A stretch of 64,000 nt of DNA, from contig CAMODB010000001.1 of NCBI GenBank assembly GCA_946611195.1, forward strand, positions 33,122-97,121. Direction: 5' to 3'. Below the pieces are notes generated by a model. That model had not been told where the DNA came from and did no database searches. It saw only the letters and a program-made list of their open reading frames with translations. Each line of letters starts with the position of its first letter. Within the stretch, counting starts at the first letter, position 1. Below, piece by piece: positions 2,860 through 62,987 of this stretch. Origin of the DNA: an uncultured Bacillota bacterium. Its GTDB lineage: Bacteria > Bacillota_I > Bacilli_A > ML615J-28 > CAG-313. The position numbers were made by a program, and so were the translations under genes.

Positions 2860-5679
2860 ATGAAATTATTTAAAAGAATTTTACCTTTATTCTTATTAAT
2901 TCTTCTTTTTACAACTGTCGCAAGCTGTAAGAAGGATAATAAAACAAATTATTCTTATCCAAGTGAAGTTCCAACTTATACTAGTAAAGATACATTCCTT
3001 AAAGTAGGTGATTTAACAGTAACTAAAGAAAATGTTTATAATCGTCTTCTTAATAGTTATGGTGTTGAAACTCTTGAATTCTTACTTGATGATTATCTAT
3101 TAAAAGCTGAATTAACTAGTGAAGAACAAGCTGAATTCGAAAAATCTTTAAATAAACGTATCTATGGTGATAACTATAATGATATGAGTGATGAAGAAAA
3201 GGAAGAAGCTTTAGCAAAATTTGAAGAAAATTGTTTATCAACTGGTTTAAAAGTACTTGATTCTGAAAAGAATAATAAATTACATTATGAAAATTATTAT
3301 AAATTAGAATTCAAACGTGAATTAGCTACTGTTAAAGCTCTTAAGAAAGAAGCTGAAGATCAAAATGCGAAAGCTAAAGAAGATTCAAGTGTTGAAGCAA
3401 AATATGCTGAAAGTGATTATTTAACATTCTTTAATGGTAAGATTCACCCATTATATACAATGCAATTAGTTGTTTTCTCATCTTATGCAGAAGCTCTTGC
3501 TGCTCTTGAAAATGCTGGTGTTAATGATCTTAATGGTGAATGGAAAGATAGTAGTGATCATGTTTATACTAAAGATGAATTAGCAGCTATCTTTGATAAT
3601 CTTGCTACAGCTGCTTATGGTGAAGTAAAAGCTGATAAAGTTTATAAATATGCTGAACTTGCTAAATTATCCGCAACAGGTTCTACTGATACAACTATTG
3701 CTAACAAAGTAAGTAAACTTAATACAAGTGAACTTTCTACTAGTTATACTCATGCTCCTATTTCCTTTAGTGGAAAATGGTTCTTAGCTTTTGTTAAATC
3801 AACATCTGATGATTATTATTATGATAATGATGAAACTGTTAAATTTAATAAAGAAGTTATTAAAGAATATAACGCTGATGGAACTATCTCCAAACTTGAT
3901 GAAACTATTTATCCAACATTACTTGAATTATTAGTTAAAGAAGATATAAATGCTTCTAATACAGCTTATAAAAATAATACGGAAAAAGTTTTATTAAAAT
4001 TAAGACAAGATGCTGGTCTAGAAATCTTTAGTGAAGGTTTAGAAGTAGCATATAAAGCTAATTATGAAAATGTTTATTCATCACTTGGTATTACTGATTA
4101 TGATGCATTCAAAGCAACAACTAATACTTCTTCTACTGTTGTCGCAAAAATCAATGGTTTAGAAATTAATTTAGATGCTATGTATCAAGCTTTAACTGAT
4201 CGTTATGGTGTCTTATTATCACTATTATTTGTACAACAATATGCAGTTCTTGGAAGTGAATATAATAAAGTAATTAATTATTCAACTCTTGAAGTTCTTG
4301 ATCAAACTAAATATGCTGAATATGTAGCTACTGATTATACAGCTTATAAAGAAGCATTTGAAACTGGTAGTTATGAAGCTAATGGTTATCCTGCAAGCTA
4401 TGGTTGGGAAAACTTCATGCGTGATTATTTAGGTGTAACAAGTGAAAAAGAAATCGTTGTTGATTTCAGCAGTGACTTATATAATGATGTCTTAGATTTA
4501 TATACTAAAGCTCTTTATATGGCTGAATTAAGTGATGTAGAATTATATTTACCTGATGGTGGTGATGCATACTTCTTAAAATCAGCTAAATGGACTAAAG
4601 AATATAATGTTTTAGATAAAGCCTTAGTTAAAGAAGGTACTACTCCTACTTTAAGTCTTGCATATGAAGAAAAAGATATCGAAGGTGTAGCTAAGAAACA
4701 TGATACTGCTGGTAACGAAGTTGATTACAAAAAAGAAGAATATTATGGTCATTTCGTAATCACTTATACAAATCCAGAAGGTAATGAAGTTAAAGCTTTA
4801 ACTAATATTACAGTTGACCAAAGAGTAATGGAAACTTATGATGAAATCTATAATGCTTCCTTTACCGCAACTGTTTCTGGTTTCTATGCTTATTATGATG
4901 TCGATTTAGATGGTAAAGCTGATGATATCGAAGGTGAAGAAAATTTAGAAAAGAGAAATCTTGCTAAAGCCTTAACTGATGATATTTGGTATTATGCTTA
5001 TTCTTTATATCAAGATGATGTAGTAAATAAACAATATCCTCGTAAGACAGTTCTTGAATATATTCAAGCTGCTTTAAGAACATATTCTACTTCTACTGAT
5101 GCAATATGGACTAATTACAAAAAAGCTGGTTTAGTTCTTGCTACAGTATCAAGTGTATCTTACACAAGAACAACATCACAATCAGAAGAATTACTTGATG
5201 ATGTTAAAACTATGTGGGAAGAATTAAGAACTCTATCTTCTTCAGTAATGGGACAAACAATTGATCCAATTTATCGTTGGATTGAAAATGATGAAGTTAA
5301 GAATGTTAAAGCAATGGATATTGCAAATACTCATGAAGCTATTTTAAGTAATAATGCTTATTATCGTTTAGTAATTACTAAACCAACATCAATTACAGCT
5401 TATACTTATACTTCATCTACTCAAGAACAAAAACCTAATTATTATCTCTATACTCAATATCTATTATCTACAGATAAGAGAGAAACAACAATTTATTGTT
5501 CAAGTCAATTTACGAACTACTATAATCCTGCTATTTCTCAATTATCATCATCAGATATTGTTAATAAGAAAATAATGACTGATGCGAAAGAACTCCTTTC
5601 TAAAGTTGAATTCAGTTCAAATAATGATGCTAATAAAGATGTATTAACTAAATTAATTAATGCTTCTCTAGCAAAATAA
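2860..5679 (+). CDS. large lipoprotein (939 aa) with two SurA_N/PrsA-N-like segments; paralog of upstream gene
   Basis: AGGAGG at 2845-2850 sits 9 nt before ATG 2860. The N-terminus MKLFKRILPLFLLILLFTTVASCKK is a signal peptide with lipobox VASC. Two segments resemble the chaperone N-domain of PrsA/SurA (LKVGDLTVTKENVYNRLLNSYGVETLEFLLDDYLL and VVAKINGLEINLDAMYQALTDRYGVLLSLLFVQQY). The listed ORF start 2824 overlaps the upstream stop and is less likely. Confidence 0.6.
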   Translation: MKLFKRILPLFLLILLFTTVASCKKDNKTNYSYPSEVPTYTSKDTFLKVGDLTVTKENVYNRLLNSYGVETLEFLLDDYLLKAELTSEEQAEFEKSLNKRIYGDNYNDMSDEEKEEALAKFEENCLSTGLKVLDSEKNNKLHYENYYKLEFKRELATVKALKKEAEDQNAKAKEDSSVEAKYAESDYLTFFNGKIHPLYTMQLVVFSSYAEALAALENAGVNDLNGEWKDSSDHVYTKDELAAIFDNLATAAYGEVKADKVYKYAELAKLSATGSTDTTIANKVSKLNTSELSTSYTHAPISFSGKWFLAFVKSTSDDYYYDNDETVKFNKEVIKEYNADGTISKLDETIYPTLLELLVKEDINASNTAYKNNTEKVLLKLRQDAGLEIFSEGLEVAYKANYENVYSSLGITDYDAFKATTNTSSTVVAKINGLEINLDAMYQALTDRYGVLLSLLFVQQYAVLGSEYNKVINYSTLEVLDQTKYAEYVATDYTAYKEAFETGSYEANGYPASYGWENFMRDYLGVTSEKEIVVDFSSDLYNDVLDLYTKALYMAELSDVELYLPDGGDAYFLKSAKWTKEYNVLDKALVKEGTTPTLSLAYEEKDIEGVAKKHDTAGNEVDYKKEEYYGHFVITYTNPEGNEVKALTNITVDQRVMETYDEIYNASFTATVSGFYAYYDVDLDGKADDIEGEENLEKRNLAKALTDDIWYYAYSLYQDDVVNKQYPRKTVLEYIQAALRTYSTSTDAIWTNYKKAGLVLATVSSVSYTRTTSQSEELLDDVKTMWEELRTLSSSVMGQTIDPIYRWIENDEVKNVKAMDIANTHEAILSNNAYYRLVITKPTSITAYTYTSSTQEQKPNYYLYTQYLLSTDKRETTIYCSSQFTNYYNPAISQLSSSDIVNKKIMTDAKELLSKVEFSSNNDANKDVLTKLINASLAK

Positions 5680-15886: not shown

Positions 15887-15953
15887 ATTTTTCCTCCCTT
15901 CTCTTTTTTATTATTTTGTAATAATTCAAAAAATATTAATGCTTTGTAATAAT

Positions 15954-15980
15954 TCAAAAAGCGTTACAGCTTTTTGAATT
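15954..15980 (-). terminator. probable ychF terminator
   Basis: TTCAAAAAGC and GCTTTTTGAA form a 10-bp inverted repeat around a 6-nt loop just downstream of the ychF stop. The U-tract lies partly inside the stem. Confidence 0.4.
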
Positions 15981-17951: not shown

Positions 17952-18731
17952 TTATAGATATTCTTTAAAAGCTTGTTTTATTAATGTAGTACTAATACCA
18001 AAGCCCATTCTTTCAATGTCTTTATTCTTATTTGTTACCATCCAATCATTAAGACCTATTAAAGAACCATCTAAATCAAAAATTCCCCCACCACTAGAAC
18101 CTACATTAATGGAAGCTGTATGTTGAAAATAATGATTTTCTACTTTAACTCCATTAATTTCTTCACTAAATGTGCGATCAGTATTACTGATATTACCGAC
18201 ACTAATTGTATTAAAATATTGTTTTGCGTCATACGGTGATGAAACACAAATAATATATGAACCATTATTTAATTCTTCACTTAAAGAACAAACATTAAAA
18301 TTGATATCGCTATTAAATTTAACTAAAGCTAAATCAATTGTATCATCACATTTAACAACTTCCGCCTTAAATTCTAGCCCTTCATAATAGATAATAATAT
18401 CATCACATAAGGTAGTTGTTTCATTATAAACAACATGTTTGTTAGTAACAACATAATAATCTTGTTTATCTTTTTTAATGATTACTCCACTACCACTACC
18501 AGTATTATTGATTAAACTACCACGATGTTTACAAAAAAGAGCTACACAACTAGTTTTAACTTTTTCACTAACTAAATTAATTAAATCATCAATCTTTTTA
18601 ATGTCTTTAATTTCTTGACTATCTTGATCATAATTAATTGTCTTATATTCAATATTTATATTATTTTTTTGAAAATTATTTAAAAACAAAATAAAAGTAA
18701 ATAAAACAATTATTAAGAGAAGTTTTTTCAT
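17952..18731 (-). CDS. secreted trypsin-like (S1 family) serine protease
   Basis: Signal peptide MKKLLLIIVLFTFILFL. Triad context: TNKHVV (His), DLALVKF (Asp), GSSGGGIFD (Ser, GxSGG). No PDZ domain. Confidence 0.7.
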   Translation of the reverse strand: MKKLLLIIVLFTFILFLNNFQKNNINIEYKTINYDQDSQEIKDIKKIDDLINLVSEKVKTSCVALFCKHRGSLINNTGSGSGVIIKKDKQDYYVVTNKHVVYNETTTLCDDIIIYYEGLEFKAEVVKCDDTIDLALVKFNSDINFNVCSLSEELNNGSYIICVSSPYDAKQYFNTISVGNISNTDRTFSEEINGVKVENHYFQHTASINVGSSGGGIFDLDGSLIGLNDWMVTNKNKDIERMGFGISTTLIKQAFKEYL

Positions 18732-19501
18732 ACTTTAAAAACCCGCCTAACATTATCAATAATATTCTTTTGAACTGTTGATACATCTATTTTTTTAATC
18801 TCGGCTATTTTTTCGACAATTAGAGGTAAATATTTAGGTCCATTTTCTTTTCCTCGATAAGGATGAGGAGTAAGATAAGGACTATCTGTTTCGGAAATTA
18901 AATATTGTAAATTCATTTTTTCAAATACTTCTACTGTTTTATGATTATTTTTAAAAGTTAAAGGACCATCAACACCAAAAATAAAATTCATTTTAACATA
19001 TTCTTTTGCAAGTTCATATGAACCAGTGTAGCAATGTAAGACTCCGCCAATACTCGCTGCATCATATTTTTTTAAAATATCAAAAGTTAATTGATCAGCA
19101 TCACGCGAATGGATAGATAAAGGTTTCTTAATTCTTTTAGCTATTTCAATTTGTCTAATAAAGGCTTCCGTTTGTTCTTCTTTAGTTGTATCTTGCCAAT
19201 GGAAATCAAAACCAATTTCGCCAATTGCTACAACACGATCATCAAGAGCATTTTTTTCTAACCATTGATATTCAAAATCGGAATAGCCACGAATATTACA
19301 AGGATGAAAGCCGATTACCGCATAAACATCTTCATATTGATGGGAAATCTTTAAAGCCAATTTACTACTTTCTAAATCCCAACCGACAACAAAAAACTTT
19401 TTAACATTATTTTCGCGTGCTTCTTTTAATACTTCATCTAATTTAGAATATAATGTTTGATCATTTAAATGGACATGTGTATCAATATAATAATTATCCA
19501 T
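18728..19501 (-). CDS. tatD: TatD-family metal-dependent DNase/hydrolase
   Basis: YIDTHVHLND N-terminus, conserved His/Glu/Asp pattern (GEIGFDFHW, HSRDA), 257 aa. Confidence 0.85.
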   Translation of the reverse strand: MDNYYIDTHVHLNDQTLYSKLDEVLKEARENNVKKFFVVGWDLESSKLALKISHQYEDVYAVIGFHPCNIRGYSDFEYQWLEKNALDDRVVAIGEIGFDFHWQDTTKEEQTEAFIRQIEIAKRIKKPLSIHSRDADQLTFDILKKYDAASIGGVLHCYTGSYELAKEYVKMNFIFGVDGPLTFKNNHKTVEVFEKMNLQYLISETDSPYLTPHPYRGKENGPKYLPLIVEKIAEIKKIDVSTVQKNIIDNVRRVFKV

Positions 19502-19590
19502 TTTCCACCTCTAAAAATATCTTTTTATTTATTAATATTATACTAAAAAGTCTGATTATTTTCAACCATCTTAATTCAATAATTAAAAAT

Positions 19591-19614
19591 AGAATGTCTT
19601 TTAAAAGACATTCT
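19591..19614. repeat. perfect palindromic hairpin A (AGAATGTCTTTT-AAAAGACATTCT), near-identical copy of the tuf terminator stem
   Basis: 24-nt perfect inverted repeat. It differs from hairpin B (19834-19858) only by a 1-nt loop difference. On the minus strand it is followed by ATTTTTAATT. Confidence 0.7.
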
Positions 19615-19699
19615 AAGATTCACAATAAGCTATATTAATTTTAATTTTAATATTCTTTATATCTTTCTTTCACTAATAAATTATTGATTAAATAATTAT

Positions 19700-19834
19700 G
19701 GAATAAAATCGGGGGGTGGATTTTTAAAAAAAGGAATAAAATCGGGGGGTAGTTTTTCGAAAAAAGGAATAAAATCGGGGGGTAGAATTTTGAAAAAAGG
19801 AATAAAATCGGGGGATGGACTTAAAACAAAAAAA
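19700..19834. repeat. 4 x 33-bp tandem direct repeats (GGAATAAAATCGGGGGGTrg-TTTTTnAAAAAAA)
   Basis: Units start at 19700, 19733, 19766 and 19799. They share a conserved GGAATAAAATCGGGGGG core with G6 tracts. Their 3' halves are variable A/T palindromes (TTTTTAAAAA, TTTTTCGAAAAA, TTTTGAAAA). Each unit contains a short AAAATC/GATTTT stem around the G-run. Confidence 0.85.
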
Positions 19835-19866
19835 GAATGTCTTTTGAAAAGACATTCTATTTTACT
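19834..19866 (-). terminator. tuf (str operon) rho-independent terminator, hairpin B
   Basis: On the minus strand AGAATGTCTTTTCAAAAGACATTCT is followed by TTTTTTTGTTTT, about 25 nt after the tuf stop. Confidence 0.85.
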
Positions 19867-19889
19867 CAAATTTTGTTTTTAGATAATTA

Positions 19890-21074
19890 TTAGTTATCTA
19901 ATTTAGTAACGTTACCAGCACCTACAGTACGGCCACCTTCACGAATAGAGAATCTTGTTCCTTCTTCTACAGCGATTGGGTGAATTAATTGTACTCTCAT
20001 TGTAGTATTGTCACCAGGCATAACCATTTCAGTACCAGCTGGAAGTGTAATAACACCAGTTACGTCAGTAGTACGGAAATAGAATTGAGGACGATAGTTA
20101 GAGAAGAATGCAGTATGACGTCCACCTTCTTCTTTTGTTAATACGTAAACTTGTGCATCAAATTCACTATGTGGAGTGATTGTCTTAGGTTTACATAAAA
20201 CTTGTCCACGAACAACGTCTTCACGGTTAAGACCACGAAGTAGAACACCGATGTTGTCACCAGCTTCAGCTTGATCAAGGATCTTTCTGAACATTTCTAC
20301 ACCAGTTACAACAGCTTTATTAGTATCTTTAATACCAACTAATTCAACTTCTTCACCAACTTTAATAGTACCTCTTTCTACTCTACCTGTAGCAACAGTA
20401 CCACGACCAGTAATTGTGAATACATCTTCTACTGGCATTAAGAATGGTTTATCAGTTTCACGAACTGGATCAGGAATATATTCATCAACTGTATCCATTA
20501 ATTTAATAATCTGCTTTTCAGCTTCAGGATCGCCTTCAAGAGCTTTAAGAGCAGAACCACGGATGATTGGAGTATTATCACCATCGAAATCATATTCGTT
20601 TAATAATTCACGAACTTCCATTTCAACTAATTCTAATAATTCTTCGTCATCAACCATATCGCATTTATTTAAGAATACAACGATTCTAGGAACACCAACT
20701 TGACGAGCAAGTAAGATATGTTCACGAGTTTGTGCCATAGGACCATCTGTAGCAGCGATAACTAGGATAGCACCATCCATTTGAGCAGCACCAGTAATCA
20801 TATTTTTAACATAGTCAGCATGTCCTGGACAGTCAACGTGTGCATAGTGTCTCTTAGCAGTTTCATATTCAACGTGTGCAGTATTGATAGTTATACCACG
20901 AGCTTTTTCTTCTGGAGCTCCGTCGATTTGGTCATAAGCCATTTTTTGAGCTAGACCTTGTTTTGCAAGTACAGTAGTAATTGCAGAAGTTAATGTAGTT
21001 TTACCATGGTCAACGTGGCCGATTGTACCAATGTTAACATGTGGTTTTGTACGTACAAATTTTTCCTTTGCCAT
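19890..21074 (-). CDS. tuf: elongation factor Tu
   Basis: [28 protein letters not shown]; 394 aa. Confidence 0.99.
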
Positions 21075-61346: not shown

Positions 61347-62006
61347 TTAATAAATATCTGACCAATTAGGATCTTTTATTTTAATTCTAGCACTTAAATT
61401 ATCGCTAGATACTTCTAAAGATTCTTTAGCCATTTCATCATTAATAATAACTTTAGCTAAGGAAAAAAGTTTATAACCATTCTTTACTTCAAAGTCAACA
61501 TAAATATAGTTATAATCTTTAGAATTACTTGCTTTCACACTAAAGCGCTCATCATTTGTTGCGGCAAAAGGTGTTTTAGTATCCAAAGATATAACCATTT
61601 CTGTTATGTAATTATCTCTATCTAAGATTTTTTTACTAAAATCATTAATTTCTTTTACATAATCGATTAAATTGATTTTAACTACTTTATCATAACTCGT
61701 AGTTGTATCTAAATAATAATTACGTAAATAAAATTCATTTTGGGTAATTTTATCTAAAGATAATTCATAAAAAGTTTTTTCTTGATCTAATTTTAAATCA
61801 AAGTCATCAAGGTTTAATTCACTTGATGTAAAAGAAATAATGACTCCCTTACTTACACTACTATTTTTAAAAACAGGATAAATTTCAATTACTTCTTTTT
61901 CCGAATTAATTTTAACATCAAAATTAATATTCTTGTCATCAACTGTTTTGCAACTAAATGTAAGACAAACGAATACTAATAAAAAGATAAAACTAATTTT
62001 TTTCAT
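61347..62006 (-). CDS. hypothetical lipoprotein (219 aa)
   Basis: MKKISFIFLLVFVCLTFSC signal with lipobox LTFSC. No recognizable domain. Confidence 0.6.
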   Translation of the reverse strand: MKKISFIFLLVFVCLTFSCKTVDDKNINFDVKINSEKEVIEIYPVFKNSSVSKGVIISFTSSELNLDDFDLKLDQEKTFYELSLDKITQNEFYLRNYYLDTTTSYDKVVKINLIDYVKEINDFSKKILDRDNYITEMVISLDTKTPFAATNDERFSVKASNSKDYNYIYVDFEVKNGYKLFSLAKVIINDEMAKESLEVSSDNLSARIKIKDPNWSDIY

Positions 62007-62921: not shown

Positions 62922-62934
62922 AAAATCGTAAAAA

Positions 62935-62972
62935 CCGAAATGCCATTTCGGAAAATCCGAAATGCAATTTCG
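62935..62972 (+). promoter_or_regulatory. two tandem palindromes in the leader: CCGAAATG-c-CATTTCGG and CGAAAT-gca-ATTTCG (candidate operator or alternative RNA hairpins)
   Basis: The first is at 62935-62951 and the second at 62957-62972. The arms alternate A-A'-A-A', so the pairings 1:2, 2:3 and 3:4 are mutually exclusive. They sit between the predicted +1 and the RBS AAAGGAG. Confidence 0.55.
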
Positions 62973-62987
62973 AAAAAGGAGTAAATT

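What the first reader, a model, noticed from the sequence alone, without database searches (positions are those of the whole stretch)
19591..19866. Four 33-bp G6-tract tandem repeats bracketed by two nearly identical 24-25-nt palindromic hairpins downstream of tuf
Hairpin B (19834-19858) is the classic tuf terminator. Hairpin A (19591-19614) is the same 12-bp stem differing by one loop nucleotide, which is unlikely by chance. Between them lie 85 bp of AT-rich sequence and four head-to-tail 33-bp units (19700-19834). Each unit has an invariant GGAATAAAATCGGGGGG half and a variable A/T-palindromic half (TTTTTAAAAA, TTTTTCGAAAAA, TTTTGAAAA). On the minus strand, the transcribed direction, each unit reads T-run, AAAATC, CACCCCCC, GATTTT, giving an array of weak hairpins with C-rich loops. 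This is not a CRISPR array, since there are no unique spacers. It could be a small structured RNA, a protein-binding array (C-rich loops for a KH/PCBP-like or CsrA-unrelated binder; A/T palindromes resembling half CodY-like boxes), a phase-variable G-tract element, or a lineage-specific intergenic repeat family.
Basis: seen in the sequence. Interest (0 to 1): 0.6.

Follow-up and report, generated by a model that had tools for sequence, protein, structure and literature searches.

The report
Orphan repeat array downstream of tuf
The four 33-bp repeats after the tuf gene are real and belong to a repeat family that, in other rumen and gut bacteria, sits directly in front of the promoter of an abundant candidate phage-defence ATPase gene; here the array stands alone, without that promoter or gene.

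Summary
Four head-to-tail 33-bp units lie at 19700-19831. They sit between two near-identical 12-bp-stem hairpins, A at 19591-19614 and B at 19834-19858, in the tuf-tatD spacer of an uncultured low-GC rumen Firmicute.

The RNA reading (weak hairpins with C-rich loops, or an sRNA) is not supported. Most units do not fold, the region as a whole folds no better than shuffles, and Rfam has no match.

The unit is not a local slippage product. Its core, CCGATTTTATTCC plus a T-run (tuf-strand orientation), recurs as 33-bp tandem arrays in unrelated metagenome contigs. In 7 of 7 loci encoding one subfamily of AAA_14-DUF4143 ATPase (PADLOC candidate PDC-S01), the motif lies upstream of the gene. In 6 of the 7 the last core ends 6-8 nt before a near-consensus sigma-70 -35 box.

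Two sister species keep tuf-tatD adjacent but have a short spacer, a different terminator and no repeats.

The window copy therefore looks like an orphan. It has array, 85 AT-rich bp and a second terminator copy, but no promoter, no ATPase gene and no detectable remnant of one.

My best reading is a DNA-level, helically phased protein-binding array, left here as a relic or decoy. The binding protein is inferred, not shown.

The parts
19890..21074 (-). tuf (EF-Tu), the upstream gene; last gene of rpsL-rpsG-fusA-tuf
   Evidence: NCBIfam TIGR00485, 755.8 bits
19823..19858 (-). Hairpin B (19834-19858) plus T-run TTTTTTTGTTTT: intrinsic terminator of tuf. The T-run also serves as the T-run of the first repeat unit.
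   Evidence: Terminator scan; fold -12.4 kcal/mol, z -4.4; the T-run/TTAAGT segment resembles the one after the tuf terminator of sister species L099
19799..19831 (-). Repeat unit 4 on the + strand, first unit in the tuf direction; core GGAATAAAATCGGGGGA with a decayed variable half
19766..19798 (-). Repeat unit 3; core GGAATAAAATCGGGGGG
19733..19765 (-). Repeat unit 2; core GGAATAAAATCGGGGGG
19700..19732 (-). Repeat unit 1 on the + strand, last unit in the tuf direction. In ATPase loci this unit would be followed 6-8 nt later by the -35 box; here it is followed by ATAATTATTTAATC.
   Evidence: comparison with L138, L141, L145 and L149
19615..19699 (-). 85-bp AT-rich spacer. It has no consensus promoter at the canonical position, no detectable remnant of an ATPase gene, and no homolog outside this species.
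   Evidence: Promoter scan finds only 9/12 matches; local alignment to ATPase loci scores at or just above shuffle level, with no convincing match; blastn-short hits only the strain variants
19585..19614 (-). Hairpin A (19591-19614) plus ATTTTT: second copy of the terminator, ahead of the tatD promoter
19537..19565 (-). tatD promoter TTGAAA-17-TATAAT (11/12). Its -10 region is homologous to that of the sister species that lack the array.
18728..19501 (-). tatD (YchF/TatD family DNase), the downstream gene
   Evidence: NCBIfam TIGR00010, 281.8 bits against a cut-off of 206

Best explanation
The array is an orphan copy of a 33-bp direct-repeat element. The element's normal place is immediately upstream of the sigma-70-type promoter of AAA_14-DUF4143 (PADLOC PDC-S01) ATPase-nuclease genes in rumen and gut Firmicutes.

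Each unit carries an invariant core, CCGATTTTATTCC followed by T5-6, on the strand that runs in the tuf direction. Units recur every 33 bp, about three helical turns, so all cores face the same side of the DNA. In the canonical loci the last core ends 6-8 nt before the -35 hexamer, which puts it at about -54 to -43.

I read the units as DNA-level binding sites for a protein, that is, an operator or upstream-activating array. The most parsimonious candidate is the ATPase itself, because no other regulator gene travels with the cassette.

In this window the array has no promoter and no ATPase gene behind it. It is followed by 85 AT-rich bp and a duplicate of the tuf terminator. It is therefore most likely a relic of a cassette, or of a cassette's 5' end, that entered the tuf-tatD spacer in this species only. 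At most it now acts as a decoy site. Hairpin A works as a second terminator that shields the tatD promoter.

Shown: the anatomy, family membership by sequence, the link to ATPase promoters, absence from sister species, and strain polymorphism.
Inferred: protein binding, the identity of the binding protein, and the insertion-then-loss history.
For: 1. The same core in 33-bp tandem arrays occurs in unrelated contigs: L138 (3 units), L139 (3), L120 (3-5) and L141 (5).
2. In L138, L120 and L141 the array is followed at once by TTGACA-17-TATTAT, TAGTTT or TATAAT, and then by an AAA_14+DUF4143 gene.
They are L142 (Floccifex), L143, L145 and L149 (Lentihominibacter). All carry the motif upstream. That makes 7 of 7 loci, with a core-to-(-35) distance of 6-8 nt in 6 of the 7.
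4. Of about 130 loci pulled by the DNA pattern, only the three with true arrays plus a promoter encode the ATPase.
5. The genes upstream of the arrays differ: fliC, a PEP-utilising enzyme, Hpt, PDDEXK_2. This makes the array, promoter and ATPase cassette-like.
6. Sister species with 76% identical TatD keep tuf-tatD adjacent but have 76-bp and about 155-bp spacers, other terminators and no repeats.
7. The window holds no ATPase homolog and no strong promoter after the last unit.
8. Distant PDC-S01 homologs (30-37% identity) on Glaesserella and Parabacteroides plasmids have different direct repeats at the same 33- or 66-bp spacing. The background is 0 of 487 window tiles.
9. RNA explanations fail.
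Against: - No binding experiment exists, and no DNA-binding domain of the ATPase was shown. The AlphaFold model was poor (pLDDT 63), Foldseek gave nothing significant, and there is no PDB relative.
- No remnant of an ATPase gene or of its promoter is detectable in the 85-bp spacer, so the 'relic' history is only inferred.
- The near-identity of hairpins A and B is not explained by any feature of the other ATPase loci. None of them shows a terminator duplicated on both sides.
- One array (L139) lies in the opposite orientation to the nearest downstream operon.
- One ATPase locus (L142) has a unit in the 5' UTR rather than next to the -35.
- Two of the four distant homologs do not show 33/66-bp spacing.
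- Among strains the cores show 0 changes in 78 nt. With a 3.2% background in the rest of the spacer this is not significant, so selection on the orphan copy itself is not shown.
Confidence: 0.55

Rival explanations
1. Recognition or recombination site of a mobile PDC-S01 cassette. On this reading the phased repeats are where the ATPase-nuclease, or a host recombinase, binds to move or home the gene. Array-only loci such as this one would be footprints or landing pads, and the duplicated terminator would be a by-product of insertion.
For: The array-promoter-ATPase unit sits behind different genes in different genomes. The ATPase carries a PD-(D/E)XK nuclease-type domain (DUF4143 is listed in PMC3424549). 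Array-only loci exist: the window, L139 and L124. The insert in the window is bounded by about 30-bp direct copies of hairpin plus T-run.
Against: No copy of the motif lies downstream of any ATPase gene, so there are no paired ends. No other locus shows a duplicated flanking terminator. The fixed 6-8 nt distance to the -35 box fits transcription control better. No recombinase travels with the unit.
Confidence: 0.15
2. Protein-independent promoter architecture. The units would be UP-element-like or curved DNA, or crippled duplicates of the core promoter (TTGNNA-N17-TATTCC), that recruit RNA polymerase. The orphan copy would be inert.
For: The 33-bp period roughly equals the -35 to -10 span. Within units the -35 slot holds TTGCGA, TTACGA, TTGAAA or TTCGAA, and the -10 slot holds TATTCC. 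Phased T-tracts lie next to the -35 box.
Against: The best-conserved bases are the G/C-containing CCGA...TTCC, not the A/T tracts. The -35-like slot is the variable part. TATTCC lacks the essential T at position 6 of the -10 hexamer. Distant subfamilies keep the spacing but change the sequence, which suggests a specific reader rather than RNA polymerase alone.
Confidence: 0.12
3. Small or structured RNA. This could be a tuf 3'-UTR extension or read-through RNA ending at hairpin A, with C-rich motifs that pair to Shine-Dalgarno regions. Alternatively it could be a plus-strand RNA with G-rich or GGA motifs ending at the bidirectional hairpin B.
For: Terminator-like hairpins lie on both sides, and hairpin B also scores as a plus-strand terminator. 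There are four C6 tracts. Weak promoter-like matches (9/12) lie inside the spacer.
Against: Folding z-scores are -1.2 and -1.4. Unit hairpins fold at 0 to -2.3 kcal/mol. Rfam gives no match at gathering score or at E up to 10. There is no room for a promoter between hairpin B and the first unit. In seven other loci the same units lie upstream of the promoter, in DNA that is not transcribed from that promoter. The C-run is replaced by ATATCC or CCTCC in L141, L145 and L149.
Confidence: 0.08
4. Local slippage product, or a phase-variable G-tract element, with no relatives and no function.
For: Copy number differs among strains, 3 units in L005 against 4. The variable halves are hypervariable, 21-29% against 3-4% in the rest of the spacer.
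Against: The 20-nt core is identical in unrelated contigs with different GC content and different neighbours. G-tract differences among strains are substitutions that keep the 33-bp register, not indels. The tract lies in neither a promoter spacer nor an ORF.
Confidence: 0.03

Closest known systems
Tandem direct-repeat operator/centromere arrays next to promoters (plasmid iterons; parC of R1 and pSK41; omega-binding heptad arrays of pSM19035). These are recalled from general knowledge and were not tested here.
   Same: Head-to-tail short direct repeats in helical phase, placed against or over a promoter, and most simply read by a protein encoded next to them. Copy number varies between loci.
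   Different: The period is 33 bp, with a 13-20 nt conserved core and a free spacer. The locus is chromosomal. The partner gene is an AAA_14-DUF4143 ATPase, not a Rep, ParR or omega protein. Binding has not been shown. The window copy has no partner gene at all.
PDC-S01, the PADLOC single-gene phage-defence candidate (AAA_14 + DUF4143, COG1373)
   Same: The repeat family is found upstream of genes matching PDC-S01 (E 2e-152). PDC-S01 is reported as the most frequent single defence-candidate locus in rumen genomes (PMC13356809), and the window also comes from rumen-type samples.
   Different: The window contains only the non-coding array. No PDC-S01 gene lies within 64 kb. No paper I could search for this gene family (by DUF4143, COG1373 or PDC-S01) mentions an upstream repeat element.
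Dispersed intergenic repeat families (REP/BIME, ERIC, BOX, RUP, STAR) and MITEs
   Same: Short, non-coding, intergenic, close to terminators, and variable among strains.
   Different: The units are direct tandem repeats, not palindromic modules. There is a single locus in 64 kb. No exact tandem-core match was found in IMG/VR viral contigs, and blastn found nothing in the phage or plasmid collections. The family is tied to one gene family rather than scattered.
C-rich-motif regulatory sRNAs of Firmicutes (RsaE/RoxS, LhrC) and CsrB/RsmZ-type sponge RNAs
   Same: Repeated C-rich motifs on the minus strand, or GGA motifs on the plus strand, lying between terminators.
   Different: No stable structure, no Rfam match, no promoter, and the motifs are not conserved in family members.
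CRISPR array
   Same: Alternation of a conserved part and a variable part.
   Different: The whole unit is 33 bp. The 'spacers' are 12-16 nt and are variants of one another. The family's consistent neighbour is the ATPase gene. cas genes were not searched for.

Membership tests
33-bp upstream repeat array of PDC-S01 (AAA_14-DUF4143) genes, a provisional family defined here | Core CCGATTTTATTCC followed by a T-run | tested here: met
   All four window units carry CCCCGATTTTATTCC, and three are followed by T6-7. The core is identical to that in L138, L139, L120, L141, L145 and L149.
33-bp upstream repeat array of PDC-S01 (AAA_14-DUF4143) genes, a provisional family defined here | Head-to-tail units with a 33-bp period | tested here: met
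   Period 33 in the window. Best direct-repeat spacing is 33 and 66 in L138, L145, L120 and L143.
33-bp upstream repeat array of PDC-S01 (AAA_14-DUF4143) genes, a provisional family defined here | Array starts at the T-run of the upstream gene's terminator, co-oriented with that gene | tested here: met
   Window: tuf, hairpin B, array. The same layout is seen in L138 and L141, and by eye in L145.
33-bp upstream repeat array of PDC-S01 (AAA_14-DUF4143) genes, a provisional family defined here | Near-consensus sigma-70 promoter whose -35 box starts 6-8 nt after the last core | tested here: not met
   After the last core the window reads ATAATTATTTAATC. The scan finds only 9/12 matches, further away. 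ATPase loci score 10-12 of 12 at the canonical place.
33-bp upstream repeat array of PDC-S01 (AAA_14-DUF4143) genes, a provisional family defined here | AAA_14-DUF4143 gene downstream | tested here: not met
   tblastn of the L120 ATPase against the window gives no hit better than E 0.67. The 85-bp spacer shows no remnant. The window copy is therefore an orphan member by sequence, not a complete unit.
Structured RNA or sRNA (any Rfam family; RsaE/RoxS-like C-rich sRNAs) | Match to a covariance model | tested here: not met
   0 matches at gathering score in the window. The best hit in 19480-19900 is E 2.4, on the terminator hairpin only. Nothing is credible in L138 or L120.
Structured RNA or sRNA (any Rfam family; RsaE/RoxS-like C-rich sRNAs) | Structure more stable than shuffled sequence, with motifs displayed in hairpin loops | tested here: not met
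   z is -1.19 on the minus strand and -1.39 on the plus strand. Unit folds are 0, 0, -0.9 and -2.3 kcal/mol.
Structured RNA or sRNA (any Rfam family; RsaE/RoxS-like C-rich sRNAs) | Evidence of transcription as a discrete RNA | not testable with these tools
   No expression data are available. This needs RNA-seq or Term-seq.
CRISPR array | Repeats of about 23-50 bp separated by unique spacers of similar length | tested here: not met
   The whole unit is 33 bp. The variable parts are 12-16 nt and are variants of one another.
Phase-variable homopolymer (contingency) tract | Tract length changes by insertion or deletion among strains | tested here: not met
   In five strain contigs the C/G runs differ by substitution (TCCCCC, CTCCCC, CCCCCC) and the register stays at 33 bp.
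Plasmid iterons or parC-type centromere arrays | Tandem direct repeats in helical phase | tested here: met
   The 33-bp period is about 3 helical turns.
Plasmid iterons or parC-type centromere arrays | Adjacent rep or par gene, on a plasmid or phage replicon | tested here: not met
   The neighbours are tuf and tatD. There is no match in the plasmid or phage collections or in viral contigs.
Dispersed intergenic repeats or MITEs | Many copies per genome | tested here: not met
   One locus in 64 kb for the unit and for the hairpin arm. The rest of the genome could not be read.
Intrinsic (Rho-independent) terminator, hairpins A and B | Stable stem-loop followed by a T-run on the transcribed strand | tested here: met
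   Both are called on the minus strand. Each folds at -12.4 kcal/mol with z below -4. Termination activity itself cannot be tested here.

The most novel reading that the evidence does not exclude
PDC-S01 ATPase-nucleases are sequence-specific readers of their own phased 33-bp repeats, with each subfamily having its own repeat sequence. The arrays would be more than operators. They could mark 'self' or home DNA for the system, or serve as the docking platform on which the AAA+ protein assembles. Orphan arrays, such as this one behind tuf, would then be kept as decoys or landing pads that tune or redirect an abundant rumen defence gene.
Probability: 0.2. Interest if true: 0.7.

Novelty: new variant of a known kind. 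Interest (0 to 1): 0.45.

Why it matters
Taken alone, the window feature is probably an inert or weakly active leftover. Its value is as a lead.

It exposes a conserved, helically phased cis-element in front of one subfamily of PDC-S01 genes. These are the AAA_14-DUF4143 single-gene defence candidates reported as the most frequent such locus in rumen genomes (PMC13356809), and their function and regulation are unknown.

A defined 13-nt core with a fixed position relative to the promoter gives a direct experimental handle: gel shift, footprinting, and reporter fusions with 0-5 units. It also gives a simple sequence tag for finding complete and decayed cassettes in metagenomes.

There is a practical point for annotation as well. 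Gene finders call spurious ORFs across these arrays, and assemblies break in them.

Tried and rejected
- Rfam at gathering score on the whole window, and at E up to 10 on the region and on L138 and L120. Only noise on the terminator hairpins, plus a sub-threshold Collinsella-1 hit (22.6 bits against 35).
- Scan of GTDB representative genomes with YCCCCGATTTTATTCCWT. 90 loci, all single matches in unrelated and mostly coding contexts, which is roughly the number expected by chance. No arrays.
- Viral contigs with a two-core pattern: 0 matches. blastn against the plasmid and phage collections: no match.
- Protein search with an artificial concatenation of the array's five open frames, meant to catch spurious ORFs. 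Only one weak hit, P0121, but it led to L141.
- Search for an ATPase remnant in the 85-bp spacer: no convincing match (4 of 5 loci at shuffle level, L120 slightly above). Search for homologs of the 85 bp: only the strain variants.
- Search for a duplicated terminator flanking the ATPase in L120: none.
- Comparison of L124 with L143, in the hope of a clean deletion. Homology simply stops inside the promoter spacer. This could be a rearrangement or a chimeric assembly.
- AlphaFold model of the ATPase, to look for a DNA-binding domain: pLDDT 63, with residues 235-325 unresolved. Foldseek against the PDB: nothing below E 0.001. No sequence relative in the PDB.
- Sigma-H and sigma-D promoter readings of the unit, checked by eye against consensus sequences recalled from memory. 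The spacing is off, and the required bases are absent in most units.
- Coding reading. The open frames would give PDFIPFF or GIKSGG repeats. Rejected because the core is identical at the DNA level across taxa, there is no consistent start codon or ribosome-binding site, and the open strand differs between gene callers.
- Test for selection on the cores among strains: 0 of 78 changes against 3.2% background, not significant.

Full report
**Setting.** All genes around the finding run on the minus strand: rpsL, rpsG, fusA, tuf (19890-21074), then the 388-bp spacer, then tatD (18728-19501), a trypsin-like protease gene, a CPBP-family gene and ychF. GC content is about 28%. The exact TatD and EF-Tu proteins occur only on metagenome contigs, including a 185-kb scaffold from ENA ERZ28612947. 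The sample labels (SHIW14, STEW19) look like rumen studies; that is my reading of the names. The nearest named TatD relative, at 65% identity, is from an Erysipelotrichaceae MAG. The host is therefore an uncultured low-GC Firmicute, and I cannot place it more precisely.

**Observation.**
- TRF gives period 33, 3.5 copies and score 195 at 19700-19814, the strongest repeat in the window.
- The 17-nt core occurs four times in register and nowhere else in 64 kb, against 0.1 expected. A profile search agrees.
- Hairpins A (19591-19614) and B (19834-19858) have the same 12-bp stem and differ by one loop base. Each folds at -12.4 kcal/mol with z below -4.
- Both hairpins are followed by T-runs on the minus strand. 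B is the tuf terminator. A is a second copy just ahead of the tatD promoter, TTGAAA-17-TATAAT.

**Population and sister species.** Seven contigs from different samples carry the identical EF-Tu protein.
- The contigs that reach the spacer all have the array. L003 and L004 have four units and L005 has three. L006, L007 and L008 end inside the array, so their unit number cannot be counted. The apparently longer spacer of L004 is a scaffolding gap with a duplicated flank.
- Among strains the hairpins, the cores and the T-runs are invariant. The variable halves differ at 21-29% of positions, against 3-4% in the rest of the spacer. This looks like shuffling of unit variants by unequal exchange.
- C-run differences are substitutions, never indels.
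- Two contigs whose TatD is 76% identical keep tuf next to tatD, and their tatD -10 region (TTTTTAGTATAAT in L099) is visibly homologous to that of the window. Their spacers are only 76 and about 155 bp, with different terminator stems and no repeats.
- The roughly 243-bp block of array, 85 AT-rich bp and a terminator copy is therefore specific to this species.

**RNA readings fail.**
- Rfam has no match.
- The minus-strand stretch between the two hairpins folds with z -1.2, and the plus-strand stretch with z -1.4.
- Taken singly, two units do not fold at all, one reaches -0.9 and one -2.3 kcal/mol.
- There is no room for a promoter between hairpin B and the first unit.

**The unit is not private to this locus.**
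- A scan of one genome per species (GTDB) gave only single chance matches.
- The metagenome scan found true 33-bp tandem arrays with the same core in other contexts: L138 (3 units), L139 (3 units), L120 and L124.
- A search with the array's conceptual translations picked up a spurious ORF, P0121, which led to L141 with five units.
- In L138, L120 and L141 the order is: upstream gene, terminator hairpin, array, near-consensus sigma-70 promoter, then a gene beginning MLKRKAY...GARQVGKTY. The promoters score 11/12 in L138 and 12/12 in L141.
- That gene product is AAA_14 + DUF4143 and matches the PADLOC candidate PDC-S01 at E 2e-152.
- DUF4143/COG1373 is listed among PD-(D/E)XK nuclease families (PMC3424549). 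PDC-S01 is reported as the most frequent single defence-candidate locus in rumen genomes (PMC13356809).

**Test of the link to the ATPase gene.** I searched for homologs of the L120 ATPase. I then picked four on long contigs without knowing their upstream sequence: Floccifex, Lentihominibacter and two unnamed. All four carry the motif.
- L145 has three 33-bp units, then TTGACG-17-TATATT.
- L149 has two units, then TTGACG-17-TATAAT.
- L143 has three units, two of them decayed, then TTGACT.
- L142 has one unit upstream and one exactly 66 bp later in the leader.

Together with the first three loci this makes 7 of 7. In 6 of the 7 the last core ends 6-8 nt before the -35 hexamer. Conversely, of about 130 loci fetched by the DNA patterns, only the three with an array plus a promoter encode the ATPase. 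The genes upstream of the arrays differ: flagellin, a PEP-utilising enzyme, an Hpt protein and a PDDEXK_2 protein. The array, promoter and ATPase therefore behave as a cassette.

**What the family most likely is.**
- The conserved part is 13-20 nt: (C)CCGATTTTATTCC plus T5-6. The rest of the unit is free.
- The period is three helical turns, and the position relative to the promoter is fixed at about -54 to -43.
- This is the anatomy of a phased array of protein-binding sites, either an operator or an upstream activating array. It is not the anatomy of an RNA or of a coding repeat.
- No separate regulator gene travels with the cassette, which has spread among several Firmicute families. The ATPase itself is therefore the simplest candidate reader. 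This step is inference.
- Some support comes from distant PDC-S01 homologs (30-37% identity) on plasmids. Glaesserella has three TTTCCTTTGAAAAAGTG-type repeats at 33 bp. Parabacteroides has two AAGTGCGGAWAAATGTAT repeats at 66 bp. None of 487 background tiles of the AT-rich window shows such a repeat at those spacings.
- Vescimonas uses about 42 bp, and Ruminococcus albus is unclear, so the rule is not universal.
- Attempts to find a DNA-binding domain failed technically.

**What the window copy is.**
- By sequence, period, orientation and position it belongs to the family: it starts right at the terminator T-run and is co-directional with the upstream gene.
- It lacks the two functional partners. 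After the last core comes ATAATTATTTAATC, not a -35 box. No ATPase homolog lies within 64 kb.
- The 85-bp spacer shows no remnant of such a gene and has no relatives outside the species.
- Other array-only loci exist. In L139 the array runs into a terminator. L124 is 98.6% identical to L143 upstream, but diverges from inside the promoter spacer.
- The most economical history is that a cassette, or its 5' part, entered the tuf-tatD spacer in this lineage, the terminator was duplicated in that rearrangement, and the gene was lost or never came along.
- I cannot show the intermediate steps, and the origin of the hairpin duplication remains unexplained.
- Functionally, hairpin A should act as a back-up terminator ahead of the tatD promoter. 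The array may be inert, or it may titrate the binding protein if the genome has a PDC-S01 gene elsewhere.

**Rivals.**
- A mobility or recombination-site role for the array is not excluded (0.15). It lacks paired ends and a recombinase.
- A protein-independent promoter-architecture role (0.12) fits the 33-bp span. It does not fit the pattern of conservation.
- An RNA role (0.08) and a slippage or phase-variation origin (0.03) are contradicted by the tests above.

**Verdict.** The array is an orphan member of a previously unannotated 33-bp repeat family (unannotated as far as Rfam and the searchable literature show). That family marks the promoters of PDC-S01 ATPase genes. Interest is moderate: the local copy is probably a relic, but it points to a testable cis-element of a very abundant, uncharacterised defence candidate.

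Noticed in passing
L156 558-657; L155 578-661; L154 about 450-640; L153 about 590-660: Distant PDC-S01 homologs on plasmids (30-37% identity) have their own direct repeats upstream. Glaesserella has 3 repeats at 33 bp and Parabacteroides has 2 at 66 bp. Vescimonas has GTGTCYACTTTT three times at about 42 bp, plus inverted copies. R. albus is unclear. Repeat sequence seems to change with the protein subfamily.
   Followed up: partly
L142 2270-2481: The Floccifex ATPase locus carries two repeat types. GTCTACTTYT repeats end in ...TCTACTTTTCTTGAC, as in the Vescimonas plasmid locus. The CGATTTTATTCC motif is also present, with one copy in the 5' leader exactly 66 bp after the first.
   Followed up: no
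window 19890-21074; L145 1280-2272; L141 1260-1535: Several arrays sit directly behind the terminators of genes that are typically very highly expressed: tuf, flagellin, and a PEP-utilising enzyme (PPDK/PpsA type). This could be chance, selection for read-through, or a targeting preference.
   Followed up: no
L143 2290-2362 and L124 (reverse strand) about 3056-3066: A compound microsatellite (ACTACAATG..., ACAAAG x5) lies just upstream of the array in L143 and is shortened in the 98.6%-identical L124. L124 then diverges from L143 inside the promoter spacer and has no ATPase in the remaining 416 bp.
   Followed up: partly
L004 4501-4600: A run of N with the flank (cttattgtgaatcttagaatg...) repeated on both sides. 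This is a scaffolding artefact that makes the tuf-tatD spacer look 155 bp longer.
   Followed up: yes
window 19696-19869 (-), 19724-19855 (-); L007 3414-3566; L141 955-1320: Gene finders and ORF lists produce 43-121-aa ORFs across the arrays, giving repeats such as PDFIPFF or KGIKSGG/KGIKSDI. They are almost certainly spurious. Contigs L006-L008 also end inside the array.
   Followed up: partly
window 19502-19542 compared with L099 270-290 and L100 165-182: The tatD -10 region is conserved among the three species. The window species has about 36 extra bases with a GAGGTGG ribosome-binding site, whereas in L099 and L100 the ATG follows the TATAAT within 6-7 nt, which may mean a leaderless tatD mRNA.
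   Followed up: no
window 62926-62977; 15915-15973; 61627-61680: Other short tandem repeats with TRF scores of 54-83: 22 bp x 2.4 (TCGGAAAAACCGAAATGCAATT), 28 bp x 2.1 just downstream of ychF, and 22 bp x 2. None is related to the 33-bp unit.
   Followed up: no
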